This document shows positions 8,475 to 22,514 of a DNA stretch of 64,000 bases, one piece after another. The translations under genes and the position numbers were made by a program. The DNA comes from an uncultured bacterium (lineage in GTDB: Bacteria > Verrucomicrobiota > Kiritimatiellia > CAIKKV01 > CALHGX01). The stretch covers positions 106,837 through 170,836 of the forward strand of contig CALHGX010000009.1 in assembly GCA_938031185.1 (NCBI GenBank), read 5' to 3'. The notes beneath the pieces are model-generated. The model saw nothing but the letters and a program-made list of their open reading frames with translations, had not been told where the DNA came from and searched no databases. How positions within the stretch are numbered: the stretch's first letter is position 1; each line of letters begins with the position of its first letter.

Positions 8475-9236
8475 GTGAGCGACACCCCCCATGAGGGCTT
8501 GAACGCGGGAACAGCCCTGATTGTGGGCGCAAGCGGAGCTATCGGTTGCGCCGTGAGCGTGACCCTTCACGCAGCGGGCTTCCGCGTAGCCCTCCTTGGT
8601 CGGAATTCCGAACGATTGGCGCACGCCGCGCGGCAGGTGAATCTGTCGGCAACGCCGCCGCTCTGCACCATCTGCGACGTGACAGACCGGCCACGGATTG
8701 CCCGGGCCATCCACCCCATCCTGCAGGCCCTTGGAACCTTGGATGTGCTGGTCTTGGCGGCCGGCATCAACGTGACGGATCGAAGCATGCGCTCCCTGGA
8801 TCCGACTGACTGGGACCGCGTTCTGGCCGTCAATCTGACCGGTTCCTTCAATGTTGTGCAGGCCGTCCTGCCCCACATGCGGGAAAAGGGATCGGGAACA
8901 ATTATTCAAATCTCCTCCCTGGCGGCCATTCGCCCCAGCGCCATCGCTGGGGCGGCATACTCGGTATCGAAGGCCGGCCAGGGCGTCCTCAGTGCCTGTA
9001 TCGGCCGAGAAGAACGCGGCCGCTGCATTCGCGCGACCACGCTGTATGTCGGTGAAACGGATACCCCCCTGCTGCAAGGGCGAGCCGACCGCCCAGGGGC
9101 CCCGAATGAGGGACGCCGCCAAATGATCCTGAAGCCCGAAGACGTCGCCGCCGCGGTCCGCTACATCGCTACCCAGCCTCCGCGGCTCCGCATCCCGGAA
9201 ATGGTTCTGATCCCTTCCGTGGACGATTACGCGTAG
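8475..9236 (+). CDS. Short-chain dehydrogenase/reductase (SDR) family oxidoreductase
   Basis: TALIVGASGAIGCAV Rossmann motif, YSVSKAG catalytic motif, 253 aa. Confidence 0.8.
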   Translation: MSDTPHEGLNAGTALIVGASGAIGCAVSVTLHAAGFRVALLGRNSERLAHAARQVNLSATPPLCTICDVTDRPRIARAIHPILQALGTLDVLVLAAGINVTDRSMRSLDPTDWDRVLAVNLTGSFNVVQAVLPHMREKGSGTIIQISSLAAIRPSAIAGAAYSVSKAGQGVLSACIGREERGRCIRATTLYVGETDTPLLQGRADRPGAPNEGRRQMILKPEDVAAAVRYIATQPPRLRIPEMVLIPSVDDYA

Positions 9237-9274
9237 CAAGCGAGCGCGCCTGTTGCCATGCAAGGAAAGGCCCC

Positions 9275-11005
9275 ATGACCAACGGCGGCGAAATCATCGT
9301 CTGCGCGCTGCAGGAACAGGGAGCCGATACGGTTTTCACACTCCCCGGATCGGGCATTCTGTCCATCCTTCAAGAAGCAGCGCGGCGGCTGCGCGTCATT
9401 TCCGGACGCCACGAAACGTCGGTTGTGCAAATGGCCGAAGGATGGGCACGAATACGGCGCGCGCCGGGTGTGGCCATTCTTCCCGAAGGCCCCGGCCTCG
9501 CCAACGGCATCGGTGGGCTGGCCTCGGCCTTCGCCGAGAGAACGCCGCTGGTCGTCCTGAGCGCGCTCCCCCCCCAAGCGGAACTGGGTCGGGGCGCGCG
9601 GCAGGAATTGCCACAAGTGGAGCTCTGTGCTCCCATCTGCAAGTCCTCAATTATGGTGACCCGGCCCAGCCAAATCGCCCAGGCTCTGGCCGATGCTTTT
9701 ACACAAGCTCGAGTCGGCGTACCGGGTCCCGTCCATCTGGCGCTCCCCCTGGATGTGATCGAAGCACGCGGACCAACATCACCCCAGGCGATGAAGCCCG
9801 CATCGCCCGCAGAGCAAGAAAACATCGCTTCCCCAGACGCTATTGCCGAGGTCGTACGCCTGCTCGCCGGCGCCCGGCGGCCAGTGGTCGTCGCAGGCAG
9901 CCTGGCCTACTGGCATCGTGCCGACCATCTCCTACGCGCCTTCATCGAACAAACCGGTTTGCCGCTTTTCACTGTGGAACGGGCAAGAGGACTTCTGCCC
10001 GATGCGCATCCGCTCTGCTTCGGGGATGCCTACGCCACCGTTAACCACGCGGCGGCCCTGCTCCAGCACGCCGATGTGGTGCTGCTTCTGGGCGAACCGC
10101 TCGACTGCCGATTCGCCTACGGCCGCGCCTTTGGCCGGTCTCGCATCCTCCATCTCTGGGCCAAATCACGTCCGTCCGCCATGAGCGGCGAGAACGAAAT
10201 CCTGCGCGTTGCCGGCCGGTGTGATGCCGCGCTGGAAAGCCTCCTGCTTCAGGCGGCATCATTCGCTTGGCCCCCGCGCACGGACTGGCTTGCCGCTCTG
10301 CAAGCCGCGCGCGAGGCTCATCATCAGATGGTCCATCGCTCGCCAACCTTCACGCGAAGCGATGCCGTGGACTACGGCCTGCACCCCGTCGAAATGACCC
10401 GGATGGTGGCCGCCGTCCTCCCGGAAAATGCTTTGCTGGCATTTGACGGCGGCAACGTGTCTGGCTGGGCGCGTACCGTCCTCTCCGCTCGACGCCCAGG
10501 CGATTGGCAACTCAATACGGTCTTCGGACAGATGGGACCGGGCCTGTCCTACGCGCTTGGCGCCCGCGTGGCGGAGCCCCAAACTCCCGTGTTCCTGATC
10601 ACCGGCGACGGGGCCTTCGGGATGAGCATCGGCGAAATCGAAACGGCGGTCCGCCACGATCTGCCCGTGGTCGTCATCGTTGGAAATGATGCGGCATGGG
10701 GTATTGAGCATCATTTCGAAAGGGTGCTCTACCCGCACACCCCCTCCTCAATCATGACGCTGAACCGGACGCGTTGGGACCTTGTAGCCGAAGCCCTCGG
10801 CGCGCATGGCGAGTTCGTTGACCATGTCGAACAATTACCGCCAGCATTGGAACGGGCGGTCTCAAGCGGACGCCCGGCGTGCGTCAACGTGCAGTTGCGA
10901 TGGGCCCCCAGCCCGCTCGCGCGAATGTTCACCGGCATTCTTCGGCGCGAGCGACGTCAAGTCGCGTCCCCCGGCGCCGCCAGCAATAGGGAGGAGTCTG
11001 CCTGA
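9275..11005 (+). CDS. Thiamine-diphosphate-dependent enzyme, acetolactate-synthase-like (three-domain Pyr/central/PP)
   Basis: 576 aa. Has the N-terminal TPP pyrimidine-binding region and the C-terminal GDGAFGMSIGEIETAVRHDLPVVVIVGNDAAWG TPP-binding motif. Confidence 0.85.
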   Translation: MTNGGEIIVCALQEQGADTVFTLPGSGILSILQEAARRLRVISGRHETSVVQMAEGWARIRRAPGVAILPEGPGLANGIGGLASAFAERTPLVVLSALPPQAELGRGARQELPQVELCAPICKSSIMVTRPSQIAQALADAFTQARVGVPGPVHLALPLDVIEARGPTSPQAMKPASPAEQENIASPDAIAEVVRLLAGARRPVVVAGSLAYWHRADHLLRAFIEQTGLPLFTVERARGLLPDAHPLCFGDAYATVNHAAALLQHADVVLLLGEPLDCRFAYGRAFGRSRILHLWAKSRPSAMSGENEILRVAGRCDAALESLLLQAASFAWPPRTDWLAALQAAREAHHQMVHRSPTFTRSDAVDYGLHPVEMTRMVAAVLPENALLAFDGGNVSGWARTVLSARRPGDWQLNTVFGQMGPGLSYALGARVAEPQTPVFLITGDGAFGMSIGEIETAVRHDLPVVVIVGNDAAWGIEHHFERVLYPHTPSSIMTLNRTRWDLVAEALGAHGEFVDHVEQLPPALERAVSSGRPACVNVQLRWAPSPLARMFTGILRRERRQVASPGAASNREESA

Positions 11006-12684
11006 TGTCCCCCCCGCCCCGTACGGACGACCGGCCGGACGCCGTGATCATCGGGTTCCACGAGCCTGATCTCGATCGCCTCATGGAAGTGCGCCGACGA
11101 ATGGCAGATTCCTCCGGCGCATTCCGCCAAATGGCCGGCAGTGTTTTTCGCGTCAAAGGCCACTGGCTCCATCACAGCGAGCTGCTGAATGCCGCGGCAA
11201 GCGAAGCCGTCGGCCGCCATCCGAACCTAAGCCCCATGACTCTGCCCTCCCTCGCCGCATGCTATCTCTTCTCGTACCTCGCCCGGCGCGCTTTTCGAGT
11301 GGAACTCGTGAACTCCTTCGATCGGGACCGCGAACGCCTGGAAGAAATCCTTCGCCAAAGGCCGCGGGCCGCCGTGGTGACCACGACATTCTACTTGGAG
11401 CCGGAGCCGATTCAGGACGTCATCCGGCATCTGAAGGCGCATTCGCCGGACACGCTCGTGATTGTTGGCGGCCCTTTCATTCATGCGCTGTGCTCAAGCG
11501 GTCCCGCCGAAGCGCAGGATCGCGTGCTTCAATCCATCGGTGCTGATATCTACATTCACAGTGCACAGGGAGAAGCCACGCTCGCCCGCGTCATCCGTGA
11601 ACTGGCCGCGGGGGCCCTCCCTTCGGCTGGATCCTCGGCATGGCTTCAGATTCCAAATCTCGTTCTTCCGCCCGCTGCTCGAGGCCGCGACGCCTTTATC
11701 CGGACGCCGTTGGCTGTCGAGGACAATGACATGGACAGCGACGTCGTGGATTGGGACGGCATTCCTGCGCGCGTCGTCGCGCCCACCGCCCTTCTTTTTT
11801 CCACCCGCAGTTGTCCGTTCCGATGCTCCTTCTGCCGCTATCCAAGCTTGGCGGGATCTGTGCGAATGACCAGCATACCCGTCATCGAACACCAGATGAG
11901 CCGGCTTCATGCCAAAGGGGTCCGAACGTTGATCTTCCCCGACGACACTCCCAATGTGCCCCGCAATCGGTTCAAGGACCTGTTGCGCATGATGATACGC
12001 CGGGGCTTTGGCTTTTCCTGGTTCTCCAACCTCCGCTGCGCCGAGGCGGATGTCGAGACGTATGATCTGCTGGCCGCCGCCGGTTGCCGCGGCGTTTTTC
12101 TTGGAATCGAATCCGCGTCCCAGACTCTATTGGACAACATGAACAAGCATTCCACCGTGGAGGCCTATCGCCGAGGCATTCACGAATTGCGCCGACGCGG
12201 CATTCTCTCCTACGCGTCCTTCATCGTGGGCTTCCCGGGCGAAACAGACGACACGGTTCGCGAGACCATTGCTTTCGTAAACGAGGTTCAGCCGGACTAC
12301 TATCAGGTGCATCTCTACTACCACAGCCGTCTTGCCCCCATTCACGCCCATGCTCGGGAATTCGGCTTGCGCGGCGGCGACTATAGTTGGACACACCGCA
12401 CTATGGACTGGCGGCGCGCCGCCGACTGGGTGGACGCGTTTCGCGAAGACATTCGCGGGCCCGTGTTGGGTACCAGTTATCTCTCAACCCTGTGGTTTAT
12501 CGCCTACCTTCACGGCCTCGGCGCCCCCTTGCCGATAGTCCGCAAGTTCATGGCTGCCAGCGCGGACATGATTCGGCGCCAGCGTGCCCTCTGGACCGGC
12601 GGTCACCTCTCCGAAGAGATCCCGCCAGCCGTCGTCTCCGCCGCCGGCCAACTGGTTTCTGCCATCACGGAGGCGCAACGATGA
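11005..12684 (+). CDS. Cobalamin (B12)-binding domain radical SAM enzyme (class B rSAM), copy 1
   Basis: An N-terminal B12-binding-like domain is followed by the CPFRCSFC radical SAM cysteine motif and GIESAS/GFPGET elements. The ATG overlaps the upstream stop (TGATG at 11003-11007). Confidence 0.85.
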   Translation: MSPPPRTDDRPDAVIIGFHEPDLDRLMEVRRRMADSSGAFRQMAGSVFRVKGHWLHHSELLNAAASEAVGRHPNLSPMTLPSLAACYLFSYLARRAFRVELVNSFDRDRERLEEILRQRPRAAVVTTTFYLEPEPIQDVIRHLKAHSPDTLVIVGGPFIHALCSSGPAEAQDRVLQSIGADIYIHSAQGEATLARVIRELAAGALPSAGSSAWLQIPNLVLPPAARGRDAFIRTPLAVEDNDMDSDVVDWDGIPARVVAPTALLFSTRSCPFRCSFCRYPSLAGSVRMTSIPVIEHQMSRLHAKGVRTLIFPDDTPNVPRNRFKDLLRMMIRRGFGFSWFSNLRCAEADVETYDLLAAAGCRGVFLGIESASQTLLDNMNKHSTVEAYRRGIHELRRRGILSYASFIVGFPGETDDTVRETIAFVNEVQPDYYQVHLYYHSRLAPIHAHAREFGLRGGDYSWTHRTMDWRRAADWVDAFREDIRGPVLGTSYLSTLWFIAYLHGLGAPLPIVRKFMAASADMIRRQRALWTGGHLSEEIPPAVVSAAGQLVSAITEAQR

Positions 12685-14084
12685 AGCTAGCCCTGGTGCA
12701 TCTGGCTCCGGATAGCACCGAGCCGCCGTTGGGGCTGGCCTCGATGGCGGCCTATCTGCGCAGCTATGCCGACTTCCATGGCGCCGTCATTGTGGATGCC
12801 GACCACCCGCTCGACACTCTGCTCAAAACCAAGCCGGACCTCGTTGGCATATCCGCCCTTACCTACCAGTACCCCGCCGCGCGCGCCCTGGCCGCCGAAC
12901 TGCGAGCCGCAATGCCACGCGTTCCCTTGATCCTCGGCGGCTACCATATCTCCGTCTTCCCCGACCACTTGGCCGCCACAGCATTCGACGTGGGCGTCAT
13001 CGGAGAAGGGGAGCAGACGCTGTGCGAACTGGTGAAGCTCTTTCAACGGGACGGCTCGCTGGCCCCGGCCGGGCTTCGCCAAATCCACGGTCTTGTTTTT
13101 CGCAATGAACAAAGGGCCATGGAGCTGACGCCGCCCCGGCCTCTGATTGAGCCGCTCGATCAGATTCCCATGCCCGCCTGGGATCTGTTCCAGCGCCGAA
13201 GCGACTACCTCGCCCCACGCCGAGGCTTGTTCCACCGACTGGGCGTTTATCCGGCCATGCTAACTTCTCGCGGCTGTCCCTATCAATGCGCCTTCTGTTC
13301 GCCCACTCGTTTTTGGGGTCATTTTCGCCTCTTCTCCGCCGAACGGGTTGTGGAAGAAATGGAATGGCTTGCCCGAACATGCCAAGCTGATGGACTGTTC
13401 ATCTGGGACGATCTCTTCACCGTAAATCGCACTCGTCTGCGGCGCATCGCCGATCTGTTCGAAGCGAACGGCCTGCATCGCCGTCTTCGTCTCTGTATTT
13501 TCGGGCGCACCAACCTGCTCGACGAGGAAATGGCTGACTTGCTCCAACGTCTGCGCGTCGAAGGCATCTTCTTCGGCCTCGAGTCGGGTTCTCAACGCGT
13601 TCTCGACTATCTGAAGAAGGGCACCGTCCGTGTAGAGAACAACTACCGCGCCCTGCGACTTTGCAAGGCGCGCGGCATGCGCACCGTCGGCACCCTGATC
13701 ATCGGCGCCCCCGTTGAAACAGAGGAGGATTTGGAGGACACGCGTCGGCTCGCCACGTCGCCAGACCTTGACTATGCGATGATCTGCCACCTCACCCCGC
13801 TGCCCGGCACGGAGGTCTGGGAAGAGGCTAGGCACGACGGCCTCGTGTCCAACAAGCCAGATTTTGACTTTGCCTCGCTGGACGGATGGCACTTCCGCGA
13901 ACGATTCGTCATGACGCGCCATGTCTCGCCGGCCGCGCTTCGCGCGTGGTATGAGCGGCTCCGCCGGGAAGCCAACCACCGGACGGATCGCCCGAAACTG
14001 GGCTGGCGAGAACTACGCCATCTTTTGAATCGCCGCCTGTGGAACACGGCGGCACGGCAGTTCCTGCAGCGGGCCCGCCGCTAG
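12681..14084 (+). CDS. Cobalamin (B12)-binding domain radical SAM enzyme (class B rSAM), copy 2
   Basis: Taken from the internal start MKLALVHLAPD.... ATGA overlap with the copy-1 stop (12681-12684). B12-binding-like N-terminal domain, CPYQCAFC motif, GLESGS. Confidence 0.85.
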   Translation: MKLALVHLAPDSTEPPLGLASMAAYLRSYADFHGAVIVDADHPLDTLLKTKPDLVGISALTYQYPAARALAAELRAAMPRVPLILGGYHISVFPDHLAATAFDVGVIGEGEQTLCELVKLFQRDGSLAPAGLRQIHGLVFRNEQRAMELTPPRPLIEPLDQIPMPAWDLFQRRSDYLAPRRGLFHRLGVYPAMLTSRGCPYQCAFCSPTRFWGHFRLFSAERVVEEMEWLARTCQADGLFIWDDLFTVNRTRLRRIADLFEANGLHRRLRLCIFGRTNLLDEEMADLLQRLRVEGIFFGLESGSQRVLDYLKKGTVRVENNYRALRLCKARGMRTVGTLIIGAPVETEEDLEDTRRLATSPDLDYAMICHLTPLPGTEVWEEARHDGLVSNKPDFDFASLDGWHFRERFVMTRHVSPAALRAWYERLRREANHRTDRPKLGWRELRHLLNRRLWNTAARQFLQRARR

Positions 14085-14090
14085 CTGTTC

Positions 14091-14906
14091 CTACCACCAG
14101 CGACGAACGGAATCGCACGGCTCCTCCGCGCCCGGCGGCGGCACGCGAAAAATCACGCGCGCCGGATTCCCCGCCACCACCGCATAGGGCGGCACATGGT
14201 GCCGCACAATGGAGCCGGCGGAAACGGTCGCACCGCGCCCTACATGCACCCCGGGAAAGATCATGCATCGCATGCCGATCCAGACATCGTCGTCAATACG
14301 GACTTCCCGCACCTCCTCGTCCGCGGGCGGCGCGCCGCGACGGCGAGCCATCGGGTCGGTGACGTGGCCGCTGGAATCGAACACCACCACTTCGCCGGAT
14401 AGCATACAGTTGCGCCCGATCGTGATCCGGCGGCCGGCGATGAACACACACCCGTGCCCGATGCCTGTGCCATCCCCGATTTCAATCACCGGACGGACCG
14501 CGAACCGGGCCCCAAAGGTAAAAGTGCATTTGCCGTCCACCCACACCCGATCCCCAACAATCAAATCCCCGCGTCCCTGGATCCAGTGGACGAAGACGCC
14601 CGTGTGCACATCCCGTCCGCACTGTTTGCAGTAGGCCTTGAAGATGGGCTCGCAAATCAGCGCGCGCTTGAGGAAATGCCAGACAGCCCGCCCCGCAACG
14701 AGAAGCGTTCTGAAAGTCCGTCCCACCCAGCGAGGCACGGGAAGGGAGATAAATTCCCGCGCATGATAGAGCCGCCGCGCGCGGCGGGCCAAAGGCCGGT
14801 CCGACCGCGCCAGACGCTGAAGCCATCCACGCCTTATCGGCATGCCTTGGGGCGCCGAAGAACAACTGCCATTTGACTCGGAGGCGCCTCGTGTATCGTC
14901 CGCCAT
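14091..14906 (-). CDS. Hexapeptide-repeat (left-handed beta-helix) acyl/acetyltransferase
   Basis: Tandem hexapeptide motifs (IGDGTGIGHGCVFIAGRRITIGRNCMLSGEVVVFD...VWIGMRCMIFPGVHVGRGATVSAGSIV). 271 aa. Confidence 0.75.
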   Translation of the reverse strand: MADDTRGASESNGSCSSAPQGMPIRRGWLQRLARSDRPLARRARRLYHAREFISLPVPRWVGRTFRTLLVAGRAVWHFLKRALICEPIFKAYCKQCGRDVHTGVFVHWIQGRGDLIVGDRVWVDGKCTFTFGARFAVRPVIEIGDGTGIGHGCVFIAGRRITIGRNCMLSGEVVVFDSSGHVTDPMARRRGAPPADEEVREVRIDDDVWIGMRCMIFPGVHVGRGATVSAGSIVRHHVPPYAVVAGNPARVIFRVPPPGAEEPCDSVRRWW

Positions 14907-15677: not shown

Positions 15678-16964
15678 TCAATCAAGCCGCGCCATTCCAG
15701 TAATGAGCCGATGCTCCTCCAACCCCGACTCGGCCGGCGCCACAACCGCCAGACTGGCCTTGCAGCTTCGAAAGACGTCCCCGGCCACCCGCATCACATC
15801 CTGGGACGTCACGGCTTCCACCTGCGCGATGATTTCTTCCGGCGGAATGAAGCGGCCGTATGAAAGAATGTTGTCGCCGACCCACAACATCTGATTCGCG
15901 GTGCCTTCCAAACTGAGCCGCAACTGGCCTACGGCGTAATCCTTCGCCCGCCGCAGTTCGGCCCCGCTCATCGGCGCCATCTTCATTTTGTTCAATTCGC
16001 CGACGATCAGATCCAACGCCCGCATCGTCCGTTTCCGATCCAACCCCGCGGACACGCTCAGAACGCCTGTCTCATCGAACAACTGCGCGCCAGAGTGGAT
16101 CGAATAAGCCAGCCCGTGGCGCTCGCGGACGGTGTGAAAGAGCCGCGAGCTCATGTTTTCTCCCAGCGCCACGCTCAACACCCGCAATGCGTACCGATCG
16201 GGATGACGCCGGCCGAACAAACGAAAGCCCATCGCCACATGCGTCTGTTCGATGGCCTTTCCAATCAACGCCACGGGTTTCTGCTTCACCGCGGCGGTCA
16301 CCTTCTTCCACGCTGGCGCCGCCCCCGCTGGCCGCGCGCCCAACAGCCGTTCCACTCGCTTCACGCATGCCTCATGATCCACGGCCCCCGCAAAAACCGC
16401 CACCGTGCGGGCCGGAACATAGTGCGTGCGAAGATACCGGCGCATGACTCCGCGGCCGACTCTGCCCAGGTTCTCCGGCGTGCCCGTCAAGGGCCGCCCG
16501 AGCGCGTGATCCGCCCATAACAATTCGCCAAGCGTTTCCTCCGCCACATGCTGCGGCTGGTCTCGATACATCATGATTTCTTCCAGAATCACGCCTCGTT
16601 CCTTAGCTATGTCCTCTTCGGCCAGCTTCGGATCCAAGTACATGTCCGTCAACACGTCCAGCGCCGTCCAGGCATGCTCAGATGCCACGCGAGCGTAGTA
16701 GCAGGTGCTTTCCTCCTGCGTGAAGGCATTCAGATACCCCCCCCGCCCCTCAATCTCCCGGGATATCTCCTGCGCCGTGCGACGCCTCGTCCCTTTGAAC
16801 AGCAGGTGCTCGAGAAAATGGCTGACACCCGACTCCTCGGGAGATTCATGCCGTCCGCCCGCACCCACCCATAGACCGATCGCGACGCTGGACACCTGAG
16901 GCATGCGCGCGGTGATCACACAAAGTCCGTTGGACAGGTCCGTGCGCCGCACATCCATCATCAT
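15678..16964 (-). CDS. M16 family zinc peptidase (pitrilysin-like)
   Basis: HFLEHLLFKG inverted zinc-binding HxxEH motif. 428 aa. Confidence 0.85.
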   Translation of the reverse strand: MMMDVRRTDLSNGLCVITARMPQVSSVAIGLWVGAGGRHESPEESGVSHFLEHLLFKGTRRRTAQEISREIEGRGGYLNAFTQEESTCYYARVASEHAWTALDVLTDMYLDPKLAEEDIAKERGVILEEIMMYRDQPQHVAEETLGELLWADHALGRPLTGTPENLGRVGRGVMRRYLRTHYVPARTVAVFAGAVDHEACVKRVERLLGARPAGAAPAWKKVTAAVKQKPVALIGKAIEQTHVAMGFRLFGRRHPDRYALRVLSVALGENMSSRLFHTVRERHGLAYSIHSGAQLFDETGVLSVSAGLDRKRTMRALDLIVGELNKMKMAPMSGAELRRAKDYAVGQLRLSLEGTANQMLWVGDNILSYGRFIPPEEIIAQVEAVTSQDVMRVAGDVFRSCKASLAVVAPAESGLEEHRLITGMARLD

Positions 16965-16965
16965 C

Positions 16966-17706
16966 TCAATCCCCCTCCCCTTCGGCGACCGCTTGCAGAG
17001 CGCGCACCGAGGTCAGCCCTTCATACAAAGCCTTGCCGACGATCGCTCCCGCCAAGTTGGGCAGCCTCAATGCCATCAAACGCCGCACATCCTCCACAGA
17101 AGAAACGCCACCGGAGGCGATCACAGCGCAGGACAGCCCCCCGGCCACTCGCTGTATGAGTTCCACAGCCGGACCCTGCAACATGCCGTCCCGTCCTGTT
17201 TCCGTATAAATCACAGTATGCACCCCTGCCGCGGCCACATCGCGACCGAGCTCCCATGGCGCCACATCAGTCTCCTCACGCCATCCGGCGGTTTGCACAC
17301 GCCCGCCGCGGGCATCAATGCCCACCACAAGGCGCGCTCCAAAGCGTTCCACCAATGCCCTCAGACCCGCCAAATCCCGCACTGCCCTCGTCCCGAGAAT
17401 CACCCTGTCAACGCCGGCGGCAAGAAGGCTCGAGATGTCTTCATCCGTACGCAGCCCCCCTCCCGCCTGAATCGGCACCGGCACCCCAGCGGCAATGGTC
17501 GCCACCACCTCTCGATGAACCGGCCAGCCCTCGAAAGCGCCATCGAGATCCACCACATGCAGTCGCGTGGCTCCCTCCGCCACCCAGTGGCGCGCCATGC
17601 TCAGCGGGTCGTCCGAGTAAACAGTGGCATCTTCCGCCCGCCCCTGCCTCAACCGGACACAGCGGCCGTCTTTCAAATCAATCGCCGGTATGATCTCAAA
17701 TCTCAT
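16966..17706 (-). CDS. hisA: ProFAR isomerase of histidine biosynthesis (1-(5-phosphoribosyl)-5-[(5-phosphoribosylamino)methylideneamino]imidazole-4-carboxamide isomerase)
   Basis: MRFEIIPAIDLKDGRCVRL... and a C-terminal GGVSSVEDV (beta/alpha)8-barrel signature. 246 aa. Confidence 0.85.
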   Translation of the reverse strand: MRFEIIPAIDLKDGRCVRLRQGRAEDATVYSDDPLSMARHWVAEGATRLHVVDLDGAFEGWPVHREVVATIAAGVPVPIQAGGGLRTDEDISSLLAAGVDRVILGTRAVRDLAGLRALVERFGARLVVGIDARGGRVQTAGWREETDVAPWELGRDVAAAGVHTVIYTETGRDGMLQGPAVELIQRVAGGLSCAVIASGGVSSVEDVRRLMALRLPNLAGAIVGKALYEGLTSVRALQAVAEGEGD

Positions 17707-19934
17707 GCCATGTTATTCTGGCCGCGCGCCCAGGCGCGAATCTCGTCGGAAAGCCCCTCCACCCGCCGCACGCGACACTTTCGCTCGCCCGCCTCTCCCG
17801 GCAGGATCACTTCATCCCCCTGCCGCCGTCCGGTCAGTCGCCGTCCCACTTCACTCTCACAGGAAACAATATGCCGCTCGGGATCCTGATCCCAAACGCC
17901 GAGAATCACGTACACTTCTGACTGGCCGTCGGCCCCCTCCACCGTTACGGTCGTTCCCATGCCGGCCGTTTCGGTGTGGTCCCGCTCGAAATCCGTGCCG
18001 CGAACCGTTTTGAGCGCCTCCTCCAACTCTTCCTGGCGGCGCATCAGAATCCGCTGCATGTCCTTCGCCGCCTTGTATTCGAAATTTTCGCTCAAATCCC
18101 CATAGCTGCGGGCATGCGCGATGTCACGACTGTTCTGCGGAATTTCCTCATTCACCAGCCGCTCCAGTTGGCGCTGTTTTTCCCGATACGTTCGCCATGA
18201 CGTAAATCGTACCGCCGCCGCATCGTCCGCCCCCGACGCGTCCTCGAGCAAACGGCTCAGTTCCGGGCATAGCGCCACCATTCTACCCGTGAGCGTCTGG
18301 GCGTCGAGTGCGAGACGTCCCGCCTTCTGCCGAACCCGCCGCAGCATTTCCTCGCGCTGCAATGGCGTCAGCAACGGCAACACCGCCTGAAGCCAGTCGC
18401 GCTGCACGCACAGCTCCGCCAACTGGTTGGCCGCGCGGAGCCGGTCGCCCGAAAAACTGCCTTCCAGACAGTCCAAGACGAGAAAAGGCAAGTCGGCGGG
18501 AGTACCCACCCCCTGTTCCGTGATCGCCGCAGGCCGCCGCGCCAGACTGTAAAGCATTTCCACCGTCGGCCGACGCGCCGCCCAGTGCTCCCGAATCACC
18601 TTCCAGCAACGCTCGCCCTGCCCGGCGCGTTCCGCAAACTCCATGAGTTCGTTGTAAAGCGTCATGTTCGCCAGTGGCAGCGTGCCGGCCACCGCGGACA
18701 TGGCCGCCTCAGCATCCGAGCGGAACAATAGTTCCAAGAATCTCCGAAATCGCCGTGGGGCCAGCTCGCGGCCCGCTGCGGCTAGCGTACCCGGGTCGAA
18801 AAAACGCCGGAGCCGCTCGCTCCCGGCGGAAACATCGTCCGCCACGCCCCATTGATAGACCTGCAGCAGCCCCCGAGCCGTCCACCCCAGGTCACGCTCG
18901 CTTGCCGAGAGCACATATGTCAGCCGCCGTGCGATGGTCGCCCGCTCCGCGTCGCCGAGGGCGTCCGGGGCCACCGCCGCCTCCAGCGTCTCCAGCCGTT
19001 CAAGGACCCGCTCCGGCAGCCGTTCCGCCGCCAGGGCCGAAAACCATTCGGCGTCAAACCCCGGTGCCTTTGCGAGCAATTCCACGGCATCGGAGCGCCG
19101 GGCCGGAATCCGTACCAGAGGATCGTTTTTCAGCGCCTTCCGCGCTGCATCCCAGAAACGCTTCCACTCGTCCGGCTTGACGATGCCCTCGCACAACAAC
19201 TCCTGCAACCGGGGCACGGACATTGCGCCAAAACTGCGCAACGCGAGTTTGACGATTTCGTCCGGACGGTCCCTGACCAGCGCGGTTAGGGACTCCGGAT
19301 CCTTGTGCCAGCGAACGCAAAAGTGATCCTCGCTCACGGGGTGGAGCGACTCCAACGCATACGCGAAGGCCATCTCATGCCCCTTCTTCCGGCTGAAATC
19401 CACCGTCACGCGCTCATAGTAGTGGTCCACCTCGCGAACCACTCCAAAACCCCACGTCTTCTCCAGGAAAAACATACCCGGCGCCAGCCTCCGCAAGAAC
19501 ATCAGTCGATGCAGGCATTCCTTCAAGGGACGCCCCGTCTCAAAGCCGGCGTGCCCCAGATGTTTCCGGCCAACGACATCCTTCCGGAAAGCCGCTTGCA
19601 ACACCGTCTCACAATGGGCTCGAAATGCTCGATCGTCCGCCAAGCGGTCGGCCCGACGCAGGAGCAGGCGCAACAAATCGTCACCCCGGCCTCGCTCCGC
19701 CAATGCATCCTCCACCAACGCAGAAAGGCTGTCCGCCTCCTCCGGCTTTCCGGCCTCCGCCAATGCCGCCAAGTCCTCTTCAACCGCCTCAATGGGAAGC
19801 GTTCCCTGCTCCATCCGTTCCAACAGGCGCTGTTCAATATCCTGGATTGATGGGGTTTCCATATCCTCCTCGCCGCCAATCTCGCCCACACACCTTCCCT
19901 TGCGATCTTTCGACTCGACACAGCAATCTGCCAT
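17703..19934 (-). CDS. Large protein with a C-terminal GreA/GreB-like transcript-cleavage-factor domain (GreA/GreB family fusion)
   Basis: The C-terminal ~150 aa (ARSYGDLSENFEYKAAKDMQRILMRRQEELEEAL...VYVILGVWDQDPE...) resemble the GreA coiled-coil tip plus FKBP-like domain. The N-terminal ~590 aa are helical with no recognised domain. Confidence 0.65.
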   Translation of the reverse strand: MADCCVESKDRKGRCVGEIGGEEDMETPSIQDIEQRLLERMEQGTLPIEAVEEDLAALAEAGKPEEADSLSALVEDALAERGRGDDLLRLLLRRADRLADDRAFRAHCETVLQAAFRKDVVGRKHLGHAGFETGRPLKECLHRLMFLRRLAPGMFFLEKTWGFGVVREVDHYYERVTVDFSRKKGHEMAFAYALESLHPVSEDHFCVRWHKDPESLTALVRDRPDEIVKLALRSFGAMSVPRLQELLCEGIVKPDEWKRFWDAARKALKNDPLVRIPARRSDAVELLAKAPGFDAEWFSALAAERLPERVLERLETLEAAVAPDALGDAERATIARRLTYVLSASERDLGWTARGLLQVYQWGVADDVSAGSERLRRFFDPGTLAAAGRELAPRRFRRFLELLFRSDAEAAMSAVAGTLPLANMTLYNELMEFAERAGQGERCWKVIREHWAARRPTVEMLYSLARRPAAITEQGVGTPADLPFLVLDCLEGSFSGDRLRAANQLAELCVQRDWLQAVLPLLTPLQREEMLRRVRQKAGRLALDAQTLTGRMVALCPELSRLLEDASGADDAAAVRFTSWRTYREKQRQLERLVNEEIPQNSRDIAHARSYGDLSENFEYKAAKDMQRILMRRQEELEEALKTVRGTDFERDHTETAGMGTTVTVEGADGQSEVYVILGVWDQDPERHIVSCESEVGRRLTGRRQGDEVILPGEAGERKCRVRRVEGLSDEIRAWARGQNNMA

Positions 19935-19969: not shown

Positions 19970-20551
19970 ATGAAAACGAATTTGACCGTGCTCTATTTCT
20001 CCGGCACCGGCCACACGGCCAAGATGGCAGAGGCAGTACACAGAGGCGCAGCCGCGGTGCAGGACGTGGCGGCAGCCCTCATTGGACTTCGCAATGAAGA
20101 CATCGTAGCCGGCCGATGGAAAAACGACGAAACCTTGGCCCGACTCGATGCGTCGGATGCCGTCATTTTCGGCACCCCCACCTACATGGGCGGACCGGCA
20201 TCACAATTCAAAGCTTTCGCCGACGCCACCAGCGAGCGATGGTTTCAACGGGCCTGGCTCAACAAACTGGCCGCCGGTTTCACGGTCTCGGGCGGACCCA
20301 GCGGAGACAAGTTCAACACGCTGGTCTATCTGTTCACTTTTGCCATGCAACATGGCATGGTTTGGGTCGGGCTCGGTGAAACGCCTTTCAATGACCAGGG
20401 CATCAACCGCCTCGGCGCCTACGGCGGCGCCATGGGGCAGGCTTTGATGGAGCCGCCGGAGGAAGCGCCCAACGCCGCCGACAAATTGACGGGCGAAATG
20501 CTGGGAAAGCGTGTGGCCGAGGTCGCGGTGCGATGGCGCCGCGGGGCGTAA
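19970..20551 (+). CDS. Flavodoxin-like NAD(P)H:quinone oxidoreductase (WrbA family)
   Basis: LYFSGTGHTAKMAEAV...DAVIFGTPTYMGGPASQFKAF is the flavodoxin-like fold. An AAGGAGA RBS lies upstream. Confidence 0.8.
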   Translation: MKTNLTVLYFSGTGHTAKMAEAVHRGAAAVQDVAAALIGLRNEDIVAGRWKNDETLARLDASDAVIFGTPTYMGGPASQFKAFADATSERWFQRAWLNKLAAGFTVSGGPSGDKFNTLVYLFTFAMQHGMVWVGLGETPFNDQGINRLGAYGGAMGQALMEPPEEAPNAADKLTGEMLGKRVAEVAVRWRRGA

Positions 20552-20589: not shown

Positions 20590-21525
20590 ATGTTCGCATC
20601 CACGCAGGCGCTATTGGTCCTTTTCCTGCTGTGCACCCTCGGGTGGTTCTTGCGAAGGCGCGGCGTTCTAACCCCCGCCGCGCTGCCGGCATTGAGCCTG
20701 ATCGCGCTGGACGTTGCCCTGCCCGCCCTCGTCTTCGTCACGATGTTGGATCAGTTTCGTGGCGCCGATGCCCGCGGGTGGTATTTCTTTCCCGCGGCAT
20801 GGGCTGGTTTCATGGTGATATCGTTCGCCTTGAGTTGGGCTTTCGCCCCGCTCGCTCGTCCTCCCGTGCGCAGGGAGTTCCGGTTCTGTCTTTTCTATCA
20901 CAACGCCATCTTTTTCCCCCTTGCCGTCCTGAGCGAGATGTTCGGCGCAGGGGCAAGGCCGGTCGCGGAACTCTTCCTGATGACGTTTCTCTTTCCAGCA
21001 TTCTTCTTCAACACATACAGCGCCTTCCTGCGAGCCGAATGGCGTGTGGACTGGCGCCGCACGGCGCACCCCGTGCTGTTCACCACGCTGGCCGCTGTGG
21101 CGCTGGCCGTCACGGATTCCCACGCGGCCATTCCCCGCGTTATCCTGAATGCAGCCCGGCAGCTCGGGGCGGTATCCGTGCCGCTCCTCATGTTGCTCGT
21201 CGGCGCCCGATTGCGGGAGGATTTCGAGCACCGCGGACCCGTCTACTGGCGCGAGATCGCTCGCTTTGTGCTGCTCAAGAATCTCCTTATCCCTCTGTTC
21301 TTCTTCATTCTTCTGCCCCGCCTGCCGCTGTGGCCCTCACTGCGTTTTCTTCTCCTCCTTCAGGCGGCCATGCCGCCGGTGACCGCCGCGCCGATTGTGA
21401 TCGAACGCGAGGGCGGCCAGGCCTCGTTTGCAGGTCAGTTGCTTGTGAGCAGCTACGTGGTCTCCGTGGCGACGATTCCACTTTTCATCTGGGCGCACAG
21501 CGCTTTCTGGACGCCATGCGGGTGA
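20590..21525 (+). CDS. AEC (auxin efflux carrier) family membrane transporter
   Basis: About 10 predicted TM helices in a 311 aa hydrophobic profile, typical of AEC/malate permease proteins. Confidence 0.75.
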   Translation: MFASTQALLVLFLLCTLGWFLRRRGVLTPAALPALSLIALDVALPALVFVTMLDQFRGADARGWYFFPAAWAGFMVISFALSWAFAPLARPPVRREFRFCLFYHNAIFFPLAVLSEMFGAGARPVAELFLMTFLFPAFFFNTYSAFLRAEWRVDWRRTAHPVLFTTLAAVALAVTDSHAAIPRVILNAARQLGAVSVPLLMLLVGARLREDFEHRGPVYWREIARFVLLKNLLIPLFFFILLPRLPLWPSLRFLLLLQAAMPPVTAAPIVIEREGGQASFAGQLLVSSYVVSVATIPLFIWAHSAFWTPCG

Positions 21526-21635
21526 CCTTCCAACAGCCGGCCGTCCTTTCGGCCCGCCGGCCCGCAGGGTGGCGTCTGGGGCTTTGCTGCGTGTTTGTCT
21601 CCGCCCCCATTCGCTTTCGCGTAACAACGGCCGCC

Positions 21636-22514
21636 ATGTTGGCCCGATTGCCCCGGCGTCAACGGCTCCAGCGCCTTTCCGACCTTTGCCTCGCAAACGC
21701 CCATGCGCTGGCCGAAGCCTTGCAGTTCTGTTCCGTGCACGGCATCGGGGCTTTTCGCATCAACAGCCGAATTCTGCCCCTCAAGACGCATCCCGTCATG
21801 GGTTACGAGATCGCCGCTCTGCCGAAAGCCGACGAAATACTCGCTGCATTCAAAGCGTGCGGCCAATGGCGCGCTCGCCACCAACTGCGGTTGCTGTTTC
21901 ATCCGGATCAGTTCATCGTGCTGGGCGCGCCTGATGAAGTCGTGGCGCAGTCGGCTTTGCGCGAACTGGTTTATCAAGCCGAAGTGGCCTCCTGGGTAGG
22001 CGCGGATGTCGTCAATCTCCATGCCGGTGGCCTCTATGGAGATAAAACCGCCACACTGGCCCGATTGGCTCGCCGTATCGAACGGCTTCCCGCATCCGTG
22101 CGCCGCTTGCTCACGCTTGAGAATGACGACCGCTGTTATGCGCCCTCAGACCTCTTGCCCCTCTGTCAACAGACCGGCGTCCCCTTGGTCTATGATGTCC
22201 ATCACCATCGCTGCCGGCCCGACGGCTGTTCGGTTGAGGATGTCACCGAAGCCGCCCTCCGGACGTGGAATCGCGAACCCGTTTTTCATCTGTCAAGTCC
22301 ACGCGAGGGCTGGCAAGGCCCCAATCCAAGACCGCACGCCGACTACATTGATCCCGACGATATCCCCGCCTGCTGGCGCGGCCGTTCCGTCACGGTGGAA
22401 ATTGAGGCCAAGGCCAAAGAATTGGCGTTGGAGCGCTTGCGGCACGATCTTGAGGCGCTCGCGCCGGCAGCCGCTCCGAGTCATAAAATCAGCATGCAGT
22501 CGCCGAAGCTGTAG
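21636..22514 (+). CDS. uvsE: UV damage endonuclease (UVDE/UvsE)
   Basis: In-frame ATG at 21636 inside the long read-through ORF 20631..22514. Sequence ...HGIGAFRINSRILPLKTHP...LRLLFHPDQFIVL...VVNLHAGG...TLENDDRCY matches UvsE. Confidence 0.8.
   Translation: MLARLPRRQRLQRLSDLCLANAHALAEALQFCSVHGIGAFRINSRILPLKTHPVMGYEIAALPKADEILAAFKACGQWRARHQLRLLFHPDQFIVLGAPDEVVAQSALRELVYQAEVASWVGADVVNLHAGGLYGDKTATLARLARRIERLPASVRRLLTLENDDRCYAPSDLLPLCQQTGVPLVYDVHHHRCRPDGCSVEDVTEAALRTWNREPVFHLSSPREGWQGPNPRPHADYIDPDDIPACWRGRSVTVEIEAKAKELALERLRHDLEALAPAAAPSHKISMQSPKL

What the first reader, a model, noticed from the sequence alone, without database searches (positions are those of the whole stretch)
17703..19934. 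743-aa protein ending in a GreA/GreB-like domain
Canonical Gre factors are ~160 aa. Here only the C-terminal ~150 residues resemble Gre. They contain an acidic coiled-coil tip (SYGDLSENFEYKAAKDMQRILMRRQEELEEAL) and an FKBP-like domain. They are preceded by ~590 residues of helical sequence with no recognisable domain. Such a fusion could tether a secondary-channel-binding module to another activity, or act as an anti-Gre competitor. It sits at the head of an operon with hisA and an M16 peptidase.
Basis: partly seen in the sequence, partly recalled or inferred. Interest (0 to 1): 0.55.

Follow-up and report, generated by a model that had tools for sequence, protein, structure and literature searches.

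The report
Long GreA with Tudor-like anchor domain
This gene encodes a member of a large, already catalogued family of oversized GreA transcript-cleavage factors (also present in Chlamydia and spirochaetes), whose long N-terminal extension contains a small domain resembling those that other bacterial proteins use to bind RNA polymerase.

Summary
The ORF at 17703..19934 (-) ends in a complete GreA/GreB module, and the catalytic tip GDLSEN is intact. The real start is probably M25 (ATG at 19862), giving 719 aa.

This is not a new fusion or an artefact. NCBIfam already curates two long Gre fusion families, the Chlamydia type (PRK06330) and the spirochaete type (PRK14720). Pfam has a family (PF27167, HTH_GRAD) for part of the extension. 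An exhaustive search with the conserved core of the extension finds 899 representative clusters. Full-length relatives occur in Verrucomicrobiota/Kiritimatiellae, Omnitrophota, Chlamydiae, Spirochaetes and Thermoanaerobaculia.

The extension is not featureless. A confident AlphaFold model shows five parts in order: a helical cap, a Tudor-like barrel, a winged-HTH-like bundle, a ~280-residue helical solenoid, and a flexible linker to Gre. Only the Tudor+HTH pair and the Gre module are conserved across phyla. The barrel's best match by fold, and also by sequence profile, is the RNA-polymerase-binding Tudor domain of UvrD/PcrA. The statistics for both matches are weak.

Best reading: an active Gre factor that holds onto RNA polymerase, or nearby nucleic acid, through a second site. 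The anti-Gre idea is not supported. The hisA/M16 neighbourhood is not conserved. I class it as a new member of a known kind, of modest interest.

The parts
17703..19862 (-). Probable true coding sequence of the long GreA (719 aa plus stop), starting at M25 of the ORF
   Evidence: ORF. GGAGG lies 3-7 nt upstream of the ATG at 19862. Homologues begin at or near this position in the alignment.
19863..19934 (-). 24 upstream in-frame codons (MADCCVESKDRKGRCVGEIGGEED), probably not translated; contains the Shine-Dalgarno GGAGG at 19865-19869
   Evidence: None of the 22 aligned homologues has a counterpart to this sequence. The ATG at 19934 has no purine-rich ribosome-binding site and lies only 35 nt from the divergent flavodoxin-like gene.
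19488..19862 (-). N-terminal helical cap (residues 1-125, M25 numbering); acidic and poorly conserved
   Evidence: Seven helices in the AF2 model. Identity to other phyla is 8-30%, and the region is largely missing in the ~610-640 aa Verrucomicrobiae-type proteins. No family hit.
19329..19487 (-). Tudor-like beta-barrel (residues 126-178), with the motif KTWGFGVV...VTVDF...GHEM
   Evidence: AF2 pLDDT >90. Foldseek top hits are UvrD/PcrA C-terminal Tudor domains: 7egt_B with TM 0.90, rmsd 1.1 A, prob 1.0, E 0.02. CarD/CdnL and NusG/Spt5 KOW also appear. The profile search of PDB sequences has the same 7egt_B as top hit, E 0.027. Weak Pfam hits in family members: CarD_TRCF_RID 5/29 and PcrA_UvrD_tudor 3/29. 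G138, G140 and F156 are invariant in a 29-sequence alignment spanning the phyla.
19065..19328 (-). Helical winged-HTH-like domain (residues 179-266), probably the part that Pfam PF27167 'HTH_GRAD' describes (no coordinates for that hit were available); conserved WK.FWDAARK.LK.DP...P.KR
   Evidence: Five helices plus a beta-hairpin in the AF2 models; it forms one compact unit with the barrel (pTM 0.79). Precomputed PF27167 hit on this exact protein, without positions. W233 is kept in 50/55 and W237 in 51/55 sequences; the basic residues are conserved. It is the only net-positive region of the protein. No relative found in PDB sequences or the local Pfam.
18228..19064 (-). Alpha-helical solenoid spacer (residues 267-545)
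   Evidence: About 17 helices at high pLDDT. Only generic ARM/HEAT/TPR structural matches, E 1e-3 to 1e-2. Identity to other phyla is 10-13%. No family hit.
18213..18239 (-). Predicted flexible linker ASGADDAAA (residues 542-550) between the solenoid and the Gre module
   Evidence: The only internal segment with pLDDT <50; sequence checked.
17988..18209 (-). Gre N-terminal coiled-coil domain (residues 552-625), including the catalytic tip GDLSEN at 18084-18101
   Evidence: PF03449, E 7.5e-17. Aligned to E. coli GreA. Tip G-D-L-[RS]-E-N invariant in 55/55 sequences. Foldseek matches to GreA/GreB with TM 0.72-0.78.
17706..17987 (-). Gre C-terminal globular domain (residues 626-719)
   Evidence: PF01272, E 1.9e-13; alignments to 1grj and 2p4v; Foldseek.
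16966..17706 (-). hisA (His_biosynth), overlapping the greA stop codon by 4 nt (ATGA); a neighbour, not part of the system
   Evidence: PF00977, E 8e-75. Junction sequence. Not found next to the long greA in 33 of 34 related loci; in L001 a hisA homologue lies upstream instead.
15678..16964 (-). M16 peptidase gene, 1 nt after hisA; a neighbour, not part of the system
   Evidence: PF00675 and PF05193. Absent from all related loci examined.

Best explanation
The gene encodes the organism's Gre transcript-cleavage factor in the 'long' form found in PVC-group bacteria, spirochaetes and some Acidobacteriota. The C-terminal 168 residues form a complete Gre module. By analogy with GreA/GreB, its coiled coil enters the RNA polymerase secondary channel and presents the conserved Asp and Glu (D589 and E592, equivalent to E. 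coli D41 and E44) to the active site, so that backtracked RNA is cleaved. The N-terminal 550 residues add a second attachment module. This is a compact Tudor-like barrel plus winged-HTH unit, of the same structural class as the RNA-polymerase-interaction domains of UvrD/PcrA, CarD and Mfd. A poorly conserved helical solenoid and a flexible linker join it to Gre. I infer that the barrel docks on the RNA polymerase beta subunit, and that the mildly basic HTH may touch nucleic acid. The factor would then stay resident on the enzyme, or be recruited to particular complexes, while the tethered Gre module swings in and out of the secondary channel. Shown here: the domain composition, the intact catalytic tip, the conservation pattern and the fold resemblance. 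Inferred: cleavage activity, RNA polymerase binding by the barrel, and any DNA or RNA contact by the HTH.
For: Gre module: Pfam E 7.5e-17 and 1.9e-13; TIGR01462 greA E 2e-29; 1grj E 1e-12; Foldseek TM 0.72-0.78 to GreA/GreB, including RNA-polymerase-bound forms. The tip GDL[RS]EN is invariant in 55/55 long forms across phyla. Architecture: AF2 mean pLDDT 89.2, with a single disordered linker at 542-550. Barrel: the domain model has pLDDT 92.8 and pTM 0.79. Foldseek rank 1 is the T. thermophilus UvrD C-terminal domain (7egt_B, TM 0.90, rmsd 1.1 A). Other hits are 6yi2, 7egs_B (UvrD C-terminal domain bound to the RNA polymerase lobe), 9dqs, 5dma, CarD/CdnL (4kbm_B, 2lqk, 4l5g) and NusG/Spt5 KOW. 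An independent sequence-profile search of 177,635 PDB sequences ranks the same 7egt_B first (E 0.027), sharing the H-x-x-[WFY]-G-x-G-x-V motif. Family members give weak Pfam hits to CarD_TRCF_RID (5/29, best 1e-3) and PcrA_UvrD_tudor (3/29, best 8.6e-4). This neighbour list overlaps the one published for the PcrA RNA-polymerase-interaction domain, which names RapA, CarD, Mfd, NusG and PHF1; that paper also reports that Mfd and CarD bind the beta1 region (PMC5397179). Selection: Tudor and HTH are conserved about as well as the Gre C-terminal domain (21-53% identity), whereas the solenoid is at 10-13% outside the closest clade. The Tudor+HTH crop alone matches both curated long-Gre models at E 1.8e-24 and 4.3e-22. 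B. burgdorferi GreA, which from my own knowledge is the ~900-aa long form, was identified among the proteins co-eluting with RNA polymerase (PMC7237435).
Against: Every link between the barrel and RNA-polymerase-binding Tudor domains is statistically weak: Foldseek E 0.02-0.3, HMM E 0.027, and no Pfam hit for the window protein itself. Eukaryotic histone-reader Tudor domains (PHF1) match nearly as well, so the fold alone does not identify the ligand. The UvrD C-terminal domain also binds UvrB (7egt is that complex), so RNA polymerase is not the only candidate partner. The HTH has no detectable relative, and its net charge is only about +2. The relative placement of the domains in the full model is uncertain (pTM 0.48). 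I could not test whether the solenoid can span the distance from a beta-subunit docking site to the secondary channel. I found no experimental study of the extension.
Confidence: 0.55

Rival explanations
1. The protein is an ordinary Gre factor, and the extension recruits or is recruited by something other than RNA polymerase. Candidates include a repair protein (the UvrD C-terminal domain also binds UvrB), a ribosomal protein (as the NusG KOW domain binds S10), or a modified lysine or arginine on a partner. The solenoid would then serve as a protein-protein scaffold, coupling transcript cleavage to repair, translation or another process.
For: The top structural hit, 7egt_B, is the UvrD C-terminal domain in complex with UvrB rather than RNA polymerase. 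NusG/Spt5 KOW and PHF1 Tudor domains are also among the hits. The solenoid resembles ARM/HEAT/TPR protein-interaction scaffolds. Tudor-like domains use one face for many different partners (PMC5397179).
Against: The solenoid is barely conserved in sequence (10-13% identity between phyla), which argues against a specific conserved partner for it. No conserved neighbouring gene points to a partner. Four bacterial Tudor-like domains of this class (Mfd, CarD, PcrA/UvrD, RapA) all contact RNA polymerase, and the protein already carries a module that binds RNA polymerase.
Confidence: 0.2
2. The Tudor+HTH module works like CarD/CdnL at promoters. It would bind the beta subunit and the upstream edge of the transcription bubble through the conserved tryptophans and basic residues. 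The protein would then combine a CarD-like open-complex stabiliser with a Gre factor and act mainly in initiation and promoter escape.
For: The layout is CarD-like: a Tudor barrel followed by a helical domain with a conserved Trp and basic motif (WK.[FW]W..ARK.LK; W233 in 50/55 and W237 in 51/55 sequences). CarD_TRCF_RID is the Pfam family hit by the most members (5/29). CarD structures appear in the Foldseek list with long alignments (4kbm_B 135 columns, 4l5g_B 160 columns). Gre factors are known to affect initiation as well (Rutherford et al. 2007, cited in PMC9126822).
Against: The long CarD alignments superpose poorly (rmsd 11.5-14.5 A, TM about 0.3, prob 0.25-0.54), so only the barrel matches. 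The HTH profile finds no CarD sequence. From my own knowledge, Borrelia has a separate CarD-like protein (LtpA), so the long Gre does not simply replace CarD.
Confidence: 0.12
3. The protein is a secondary-channel competitor or inhibitor (anti-Gre, Gfh1-like) rather than a cleavage factor.
For: Gfh1 structures are among the Foldseek hits (2f23, 3aoi, 2eul). A bulky N-terminal extension might conceivably hinder productive insertion.
Against: The matches to the free-Gfh1 crystal structures (2f23, 2eul, 2etn) are poor (rmsd about 13 A, TM 0.44), whereas GreA, GreB and RNA-polymerase-bound Gfh1 give TM 0.70-0.78. The catalytic D and E and the surrounding GDL.EN.EY motif are invariant in 55/55 sequences. 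No other Gre gene lies in the window for it to compete with. From my own knowledge, the long form is the only Gre homologue in the reduced genomes of Chlamydia and Borrelia. From the GreA/GreB structures (my own knowledge), the Gre N-terminus sits outside the channel, so an N-terminal fusion should not block insertion.
Confidence: 0.05

Closest known systems
NCBIfam NF004969 (PRK06330), 'transcript cleavage factor/unknown domain fusion protein', the ~715-aa GreA of Chlamydia (C. trachomatis CT636/CTL0004)
   Same: Similar length (718 vs 719 aa) and the same order of modules. The Tudor+HTH core matches model positions 117-272 at E 1.8e-24, and the Gre module sits at the C-terminus. A chlamydial relative (Neptunochlamydia, L029, 724 aa) aligns over both modules.
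   Different: The whole-protein score of 166 bits is far below the equivalog cut-off of 697. The N-terminal cap and the solenoid are only about 8-10% identical. This protein belongs to a Kiritimatiellae/Verrucomicrobiota-like branch; its nearest relatives are 33-44% identical.
NCBIfam NF011309 (PRK14720), the ~900-aa GreA of spirochaetes (e.g. Borrelia burgdorferi BB0132)
   Same: The Tudor+HTH core matches model positions 307-440 at E 4.3e-22, and the Gre module matches 752-897. This is the best-scoring NCBIfam model overall (185.6 bits).
   Different: The spirochaete proteins carry about 180 extra N-terminal residues (891-901 aa). The score is far below the 714-bit cut-off.
Canonical GreA/GreB (E. 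coli, ~158 aa; PDB 1grj, 2p4v)
   Same: Complete coiled-coil and globular domains, the acidic tip GDL.EN, and TM 0.72-0.77.
   Different: About 550 extra N-terminal residues. Scores are below the equivalog cut-offs of all short GreA/GreB models.
Tudor-like RNA-polymerase-interaction domains of UvrD/PcrA (PF21196), CarD/CdnL and Mfd (PF02559)
   Same: The same five-stranded barrel, with TM up to 0.90 and rmsd 1.1 A. The H-x-x-[WFY]-G-x-G-x-V motif is shared with UvrD. All occur in proteins that act on RNA polymerase.
   Different: Sequence similarity is marginal (E about 0.03; no Pfam hit for the window protein). Here the barrel is N-terminal to an HTH and fused to a Gre factor, not to a helicase or translocase. 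Binding to RNA polymerase is untested.

Membership tests
GreA/GreB transcript cleavage factor family (Pfam PF03449 + PF01272) | N-terminal antiparallel coiled-coil domain | tested here: met
   PF03449, E 7.5e-17, 61.7 bits against a cut-off of 24.5. Two long helices, 556-585 and 594-619, in the AF2 model.
GreA/GreB transcript cleavage factor family (Pfam PF03449 + PF01272) | C-terminal globular (FKBP-like fold) domain that, in GreA/GreB, docks at the rim of the secondary channel | tested here: met
   PF01272, E 1.9e-13, 50.6 bits against a cut-off of 26.9. Foldseek TM 0.72-0.78 to 1grj, 2p4v and 9a7t_B. Docking itself was not tested.
GreA/GreB transcript cleavage factor family (Pfam PF03449 + PF01272) | Conserved acidic residues at the coiled-coil tip (E. 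coli D41 and E44) | tested here: met
   GDLSEN aligns to GDLKEN of 1grj. D589 and E592 are invariant in 55/55 long forms.
GreA/GreB transcript cleavage factor family (Pfam PF03449 + PF01272) | Stimulates the endonucleolytic transcript cleavage activity of RNA polymerase | not testable with these tools
   Needs an in vitro cleavage assay with backtracked elongation complexes.
NCBIfam NF004969 (chlamydial long GreA, equivalog) | Whole-protein score at or above the curated cut-off (697 bits) | tested here: not met
   166.4 bits. It shares the architecture but is not an equivalog member.
NCBIfam NF011309 (spirochaetal long GreA, equivalog) | Whole-protein score at or above the curated cut-off (714 bits) | tested here: not met
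   185.6 bits.
Long Gre fusion architecture (Tudor-like + HTH_GRAD + helical spacer + Gre) | PF27167 HTH_GRAD domain lying N-terminal to PF03449/PF01272 in one polypeptide | tested here: met
   The precomputed Pfam annotation of this exact protein (P0001) lists PF27167, PF03449 and PF01272. The model is absent from the local Pfam copy, so I could not re-run it. The Tudor+HTH crop hits both long-Gre NCBIfam models at E <= 4e-22.
Bacterial Tudor-like RNA-polymerase-interaction domains (PF02559 CarD_TRCF_RID; PF21196 PcrA_UvrD_tudor) | Five-stranded Tudor/SH3-like barrel fold | tested here: met
   AF2 pLDDT >90. Foldseek prob 1.0, TM 0.90, rmsd 1.1 A to 7egt_B; also 6yi2, 7egs_B, 9dqs, 5dma and 2lqk.
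Bacterial Tudor-like RNA-polymerase-interaction domains (PF02559 CarD_TRCF_RID; PF21196 PcrA_UvrD_tudor) | Significant sequence match to the family models | tested here: inconclusive
   The window protein has no hit. 5/29 and 3/29 relatives hit at E about 1e-3. The profile-to-PDB top hit is UvrD at E 0.027.
Bacterial Tudor-like RNA-polymerase-interaction domains (PF02559 CarD_TRCF_RID; PF21196 PcrA_UvrD_tudor) | Direct binding to the RNA polymerase beta subunit | not testable with these tools
   Needs a pull-down, two-hybrid assay, cross-linking mass spectrometry or cryo-EM.
Gfh1-type secondary-channel inhibitors (anti-Gre) | Gre fold without cleavage-stimulating function, coexisting with a true Gre factor | tested here: inconclusive
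   The tip motif is the canonical GreA one and is invariant. The model matches GreA, GreB and polymerase-bound Gfh1 better (TM 0.70-0.78) than free Gfh1 crystal structures (TM 0.44, rmsd 13 A). No second Gre gene lies in the 64-kb window, but the rest of the genome was not available. Activity was not tested.

The most novel reading that the evidence does not exclude
All long Gre factors of the PVC group, spirochaetes and Thermoanaerobaculia, including those of the pathogens Chlamydia, Borrelia and Treponema, would be two-site RNA polymerase binders. A UvrD/CarD/Mfd-type Tudor domain, rigidly paired with a family-specific winged HTH, would anchor the factor on the beta subunit or adjacent nucleic acid. 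A flexible solenoid tether would deliver the Gre module to the secondary channel. This would make Gre a resident subunit-like component. It could also compete with Mfd, UvrD or CarD for the same docking site. It would finally explain the 'unknown domain fusion' annotation that these genomes carry.
Probability: 0.4. Interest if true: 0.55.

Novelty: new member of a known kind. Interest (0 to 1): 0.3.

Why it matters
The fusion itself is catalogued, so the window adds only a divergent Kiritimatiellae-like member. What may be useful is a concrete, testable idea for what the extension does. A 2024 review still describes the 715-aa chlamydial GreA only as 'unusually large' and probably not functionally comparable to E. 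coli GreA (PMC10995303). I found no study of the extension. If the Tudor-like barrel does dock on RNA polymerase, these lineages handle backtracking with a tethered Gre factor rather than a diffusible one. That would affect how Gre competes with DksA in the secondary channel, and with Mfd, UvrD or CarD on the beta subunit. The long form occurs in several human pathogens.

Tried and rejected
1. Fusion or frameshift artefact: rejected. The same continuous architecture is present in 43 close homologues and in more than 30 genomes of other phyla.
2. Start at the first ATG (19934): rejected in favour of 19862.
3. Functional link to hisA, the M16 peptidase, the SDR or the flavodoxin-like neighbours: rejected. 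tblastn of these proteins against 34 related loci found only one hisA, and that one lies upstream.
4. A second, canonical Gre gene in the window: none found. tblastn with E. coli GreA/GreB and with the window's own Gre module gave nothing better than E 0.03. I could not check the rest of the genome.
5. Direct Pfam detection of a CarD or UvrD Tudor domain in the window protein: negative. Only relatives give weak hits.
6. Whole CarD-like module (barrel plus helical domain): the long Foldseek alignments to CarD superpose poorly (rmsd 11-15 A), so only the barrel similarity is kept.
7. Identity of the HTH: profile searches against PDB sequences and Pfam gave nothing. My impression that it resembles HARE-HTH-type winged helices rests on memory only and is untested.
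8. Solenoid and N-terminal cap: no NCBIfam hit, and only generic helical-repeat structural matches.
9. Literature: ten searches found no experimental study of the extension and no source for the name 'GRAD'. Two of them were wasted because 'grea' matched 'great/greater'.
10. Rfam and tRNA scans of the window found nothing. The promoter and terminator scan was uninformative.


Full report
OBSERVATION

The ORF at 17703..19934 on the minus strand is real and encodes 743 codons. Pfam places GreA_GreB_N at residues 581-644 (E 7.5e-17) and the GreA/GreB C-terminal domain at 655-726 (E 1.9e-13). That places the window's Asp and Glu opposite E. coli D41 and E44.

The first 24 codons are probably not translated. 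The ATG at 19862 has a GGAGG 3-7 nt upstream. In an alignment of 22 full-length homologues, they begin at or near that position, a few with longer N-termini, and none has a counterpart of the upstream peptide. From here on, residues are numbered from that Met (719 aa).

The gene is not a frameshift fusion. The same uninterrupted architecture occurs in 43 homologues at 33-44% identity over nearly the full length. It also occurs in genomes of several other phyla.

THE FUSION IS ALREADY CATALOGUED

The two best NCBIfam matches are not short Gre factors. They are two curated long ones:
- NF011309 (PRK14720, 906 aa, annotated GreA): 185.6 bits.
- NF004969 (PRK06330, 718 aa, 'transcript cleavage factor/unknown domain fusion protein'): 166.4 bits, including a match of residues 121-284 of the ORF to model positions 108-273.

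Both scores are far below the equivalog cut-offs of 714 and 697 bits. From my own knowledge, these are the spirochaete and Chlamydia GreA proteins.

The precomputed Pfam annotation of this exact protein lists a further family, PF27167 'HTH_GRAD'. That family is missing from the local Pfam copy.

A phmmer search of 1.84 billion representative proteins with residues 105-270 alone returned 899 clusters at E <= 0.001 and 436 at E <= 1e-10. Nearly all of the top 150 are 700-750 aa long, with the match at about 110-275.

A scan of species-representative genomes found the long form in these groups:
- Kiritimatiellae/Pontiellaceae: 669-742 aa
- Verrucomicrobiae, Akkermansiaceae, Chthoniobacterales, Pedosphaera: about 610-685 aa
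- Omnitrophota: 722 aa
- Chlamydiae (Neptunochlamydia): 724 aa
- Thermoanaerobaculia and relatives: 690-707 aa
- Spirochaetes: 891-901 aa

A 2024 review notes that the C. trachomatis GreA (CTL0004, 715 aa) is 'unusually large' and offers no function for the extra sequence (PMC10995303). In B. burgdorferi, GreA was identified among the proteins co-eluting with RNA polymerase (PMC7237435).

ANATOMY OF THE EXTENSION

An AlphaFold2 model built on a 23-sequence alignment is confident: mean pLDDT 89.2, and only residues 542-550 fall below 50. The relative placement of the domains is uncertain (pTM 0.48). The model shows these parts:
- Helical cap, residues 1-125.
- Small beta-barrel, 131-175.
- Five-helix bundle ending in a beta-hairpin, 181-262.
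- Solenoid of about 17 helices, 271-544.
- Linker ASGADDAAA, 542-550.
- Gre module, 552-719.

In a Foldseek search of the PDB with the whole model, GreA, GreB and polymerase-bound Gfh1 come first (TM 0.70-0.78 normalised to the target). After them come only generic ARM/HEAT/TPR proteins at E 1e-3 to 1e-2.

WHAT IS CONSERVED

tblastn of the window protein against long-form loci from other phyla aligns two pieces only: residues about 123-262 and about 520-700. In a 55-sequence alignment, identity to the window protein by region is:
- Barrel: 26-53%
- HTH: 21-49%
- Gre coiled coil: 26-62%
- Gre globular domain: 24-40%
- Solenoid: 10-13% outside the closest clade
- N-terminal cap: 8-30%; largely absent from the Verrucomicrobiae-type proteins

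The barrel+HTH crop alone matches both curated long-Gre models (E 1.8e-24 and 4.3e-22). The cap and the solenoid match nothing. The family is therefore defined by [Tudor-like barrel + HTH], then a variable helical spacer, then Gre. The catalytic tip G-D-L-[R/S]-E-N is invariant in all 55 sequences.

THE BARREL

A separate model of residues 105-270 is very confident (pLDDT 92.8). Its pTM of 0.79 indicates that the barrel and the HTH form one compact unit.

No Foldseek match reaches E 1e-3, which is expected for a 50-residue domain. The list is nevertheless coherent:
- Rank 1 is the C-terminal Tudor domain of T. thermophilus UvrD (7egt_B; prob 1.0, TM 0.90, rmsd 1.1 A over 51 columns).
- Next come 6yi2 (UvrD Tudor domain, RNA polymerase interaction), 7egs_B (UvrD C-terminal domain bound to the E. 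coli RNA polymerase lobe), 9dqs and 5dma (UvrD1 and PcrA Tudor domains).
- Eukaryotic PHF1/PHF19 Tudor domains, CarD/CdnL (4kbm_B, 2lqk, 4l5g) and NusG/Spt5 KOW domains also appear.

The paper that solved the PcrA RNA-polymerase-interaction domain reports an overlapping set of neighbours: RapA, CarD, Mfd, NusG and PHF1. It also notes that Mfd and CarD bind the beta1 region of RNA polymerase (PMC5397179).

There is independent sequence evidence. A profile of the barrel+HTH core from 29 diverse members ranks the same UvrD chain first among 177,635 PDB sequences (E 0.027). The alignment shares the motif H-x-x-[W/F/Y]-G-x-G-x-V, and M. smegmatis UvrD1 follows at E 0.21. When family members are scanned one by one against Pfam, 5 of 29 reach CarD_TRCF_RID (best 1e-3), 3 reach PcrA_UvrD_tudor (8.6e-4) and 4 reach DUF3553 (1.4e-4). 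The window protein itself reaches none of them.

Each signal is weak, but two independent methods point to the same small family. I therefore accept the fold assignment. I treat membership of a specific RNA-polymerase-interaction-domain family as unproven.

THE HTH AND THE SPACER

The bundle carries the most conserved motif of the extension, WK.[FW]W.(A)ARK.LK.DP...P.[KR][RK]. It is the only region with a net positive charge across the family (mean +2.0); every other region is acidic. Profile searches found no relative in PDB sequences or in the local Pfam. The long Foldseek alignments to whole CarD superpose poorly (rmsd 11-15 A). I therefore do not claim a complete CarD-like module. The solenoid behaves like a spacer or scaffold under weak sequence constraint.

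MECHANISM

Shown:
- a complete Gre module with an invariant catalytic tip;
- a rigid Tudor-like+HTH unit conserved as strongly as the Gre domain;
- a variable helical connector and one flexible hinge.

Inferred:
- The Gre module works as in GreA/GreB, stimulating cleavage of backtracked RNA through the secondary channel. From the GreA/GreB structures (my own knowledge), the N-terminus of the Gre coiled coil lies outside the channel, so an N-terminal fusion should be compatible with insertion.
- The barrel docks on the RNA polymerase beta subunit, as the structurally similar domains of Mfd, CarD and UvrD/PcrA do.
- The HTH may contact nucleic acid.

The result would be a resident or specifically recruited Gre factor (confidence 0.55). 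The rivals are:
- The extension binds a partner other than RNA polymerase (0.2).
- The module acts like CarD at promoters (0.12).
- The protein is an anti-Gre inhibitor (0.05). The invariant tip, the better fit to GreA, GreB and polymerase-bound Gfh1 than to free Gfh1 and the lack of a second Gre gene in the window all count against this.

CONTEXT

The greA stop codon overlaps the hisA start (ATGA). The M16 peptidase gene follows 1 nt after hisA, so co-transcription is likely. None of these neighbours accompanies the long greA in related loci, apart from one hisA that lies upstream in L001. The arrangement carries no functional message.

VERDICT

The protein is a divergent (Kiritimatiellae/Verrucomicrobiota-like) member of a known, widespread family of long Gre factors. 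[quoted passage not shown] That hypothesis is testable but rests on weak statistics. Interest is modest (0.3).

Noticed in passing
window 19863-19934 (-): The 743-aa ORF, and the deposited protein P0001, start at an ATG 24 codons upstream of the likely true start (19862, which has a GGAGG Shine-Dalgarno). The public gene call is probably too long at its 5' end, and it comes within 35 nt of the divergent flavodoxin-like gene at 19970.
   Followed up: yes
window about 8475-14906 (coordinates mapped from L081): Just beyond the greA-hisA-M16-SDR-hexapeptide-transferase run, and convergent with it, lies a plus-strand cluster. It encodes an SDR, a TPP-dependent enzyme, a radical SAM protein and a B12-binding radical SAM protein. 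This looks like a small biosynthetic or modification cluster of unknown product.
   Followed up: no
window 20631-22514 (+): The 627-aa ORF listed here is an artefact of a long open frame in GC-rich DNA. The called genes are a Mem_trans (auxin-efflux-carrier-like) permease at 20590-21525 and a UvdE-type UV damage endonuclease of 332 aa ending at 22514.
   Followed up: partly
window 1-64000: There are no tRNA genes and no Rfam family above gathering score anywhere in the 64 kb. GC skew is negative in every 2-kb bin, so the whole window probably lies on one replichore.
   Followed up: no
L009-L021 (Verrucomicrobiae-type loci): The long Gre proteins of Verrucomicrobiae, Akkermansiaceae and Chthoniobacterales are about 100 aa shorter (about 610-685 aa). 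They largely lack the N-terminal helical cap, so the protein begins almost directly at the Tudor-like barrel. The cap is therefore dispensable for the family's core function.
   Followed up: partly
L005, L006, L017 (record titles): Three contigs carrying long Gre genes are labelled Faecalibacterium, Muribaculaceae and Bifidobacteriaceae. Their long Gre proteins cluster with Kiritimatiellae- or Verrucomicrobia-type sequences, so these contigs are probably mis-binned in the MAGs rather than evidence for the family in those taxa.
   Followed up: no
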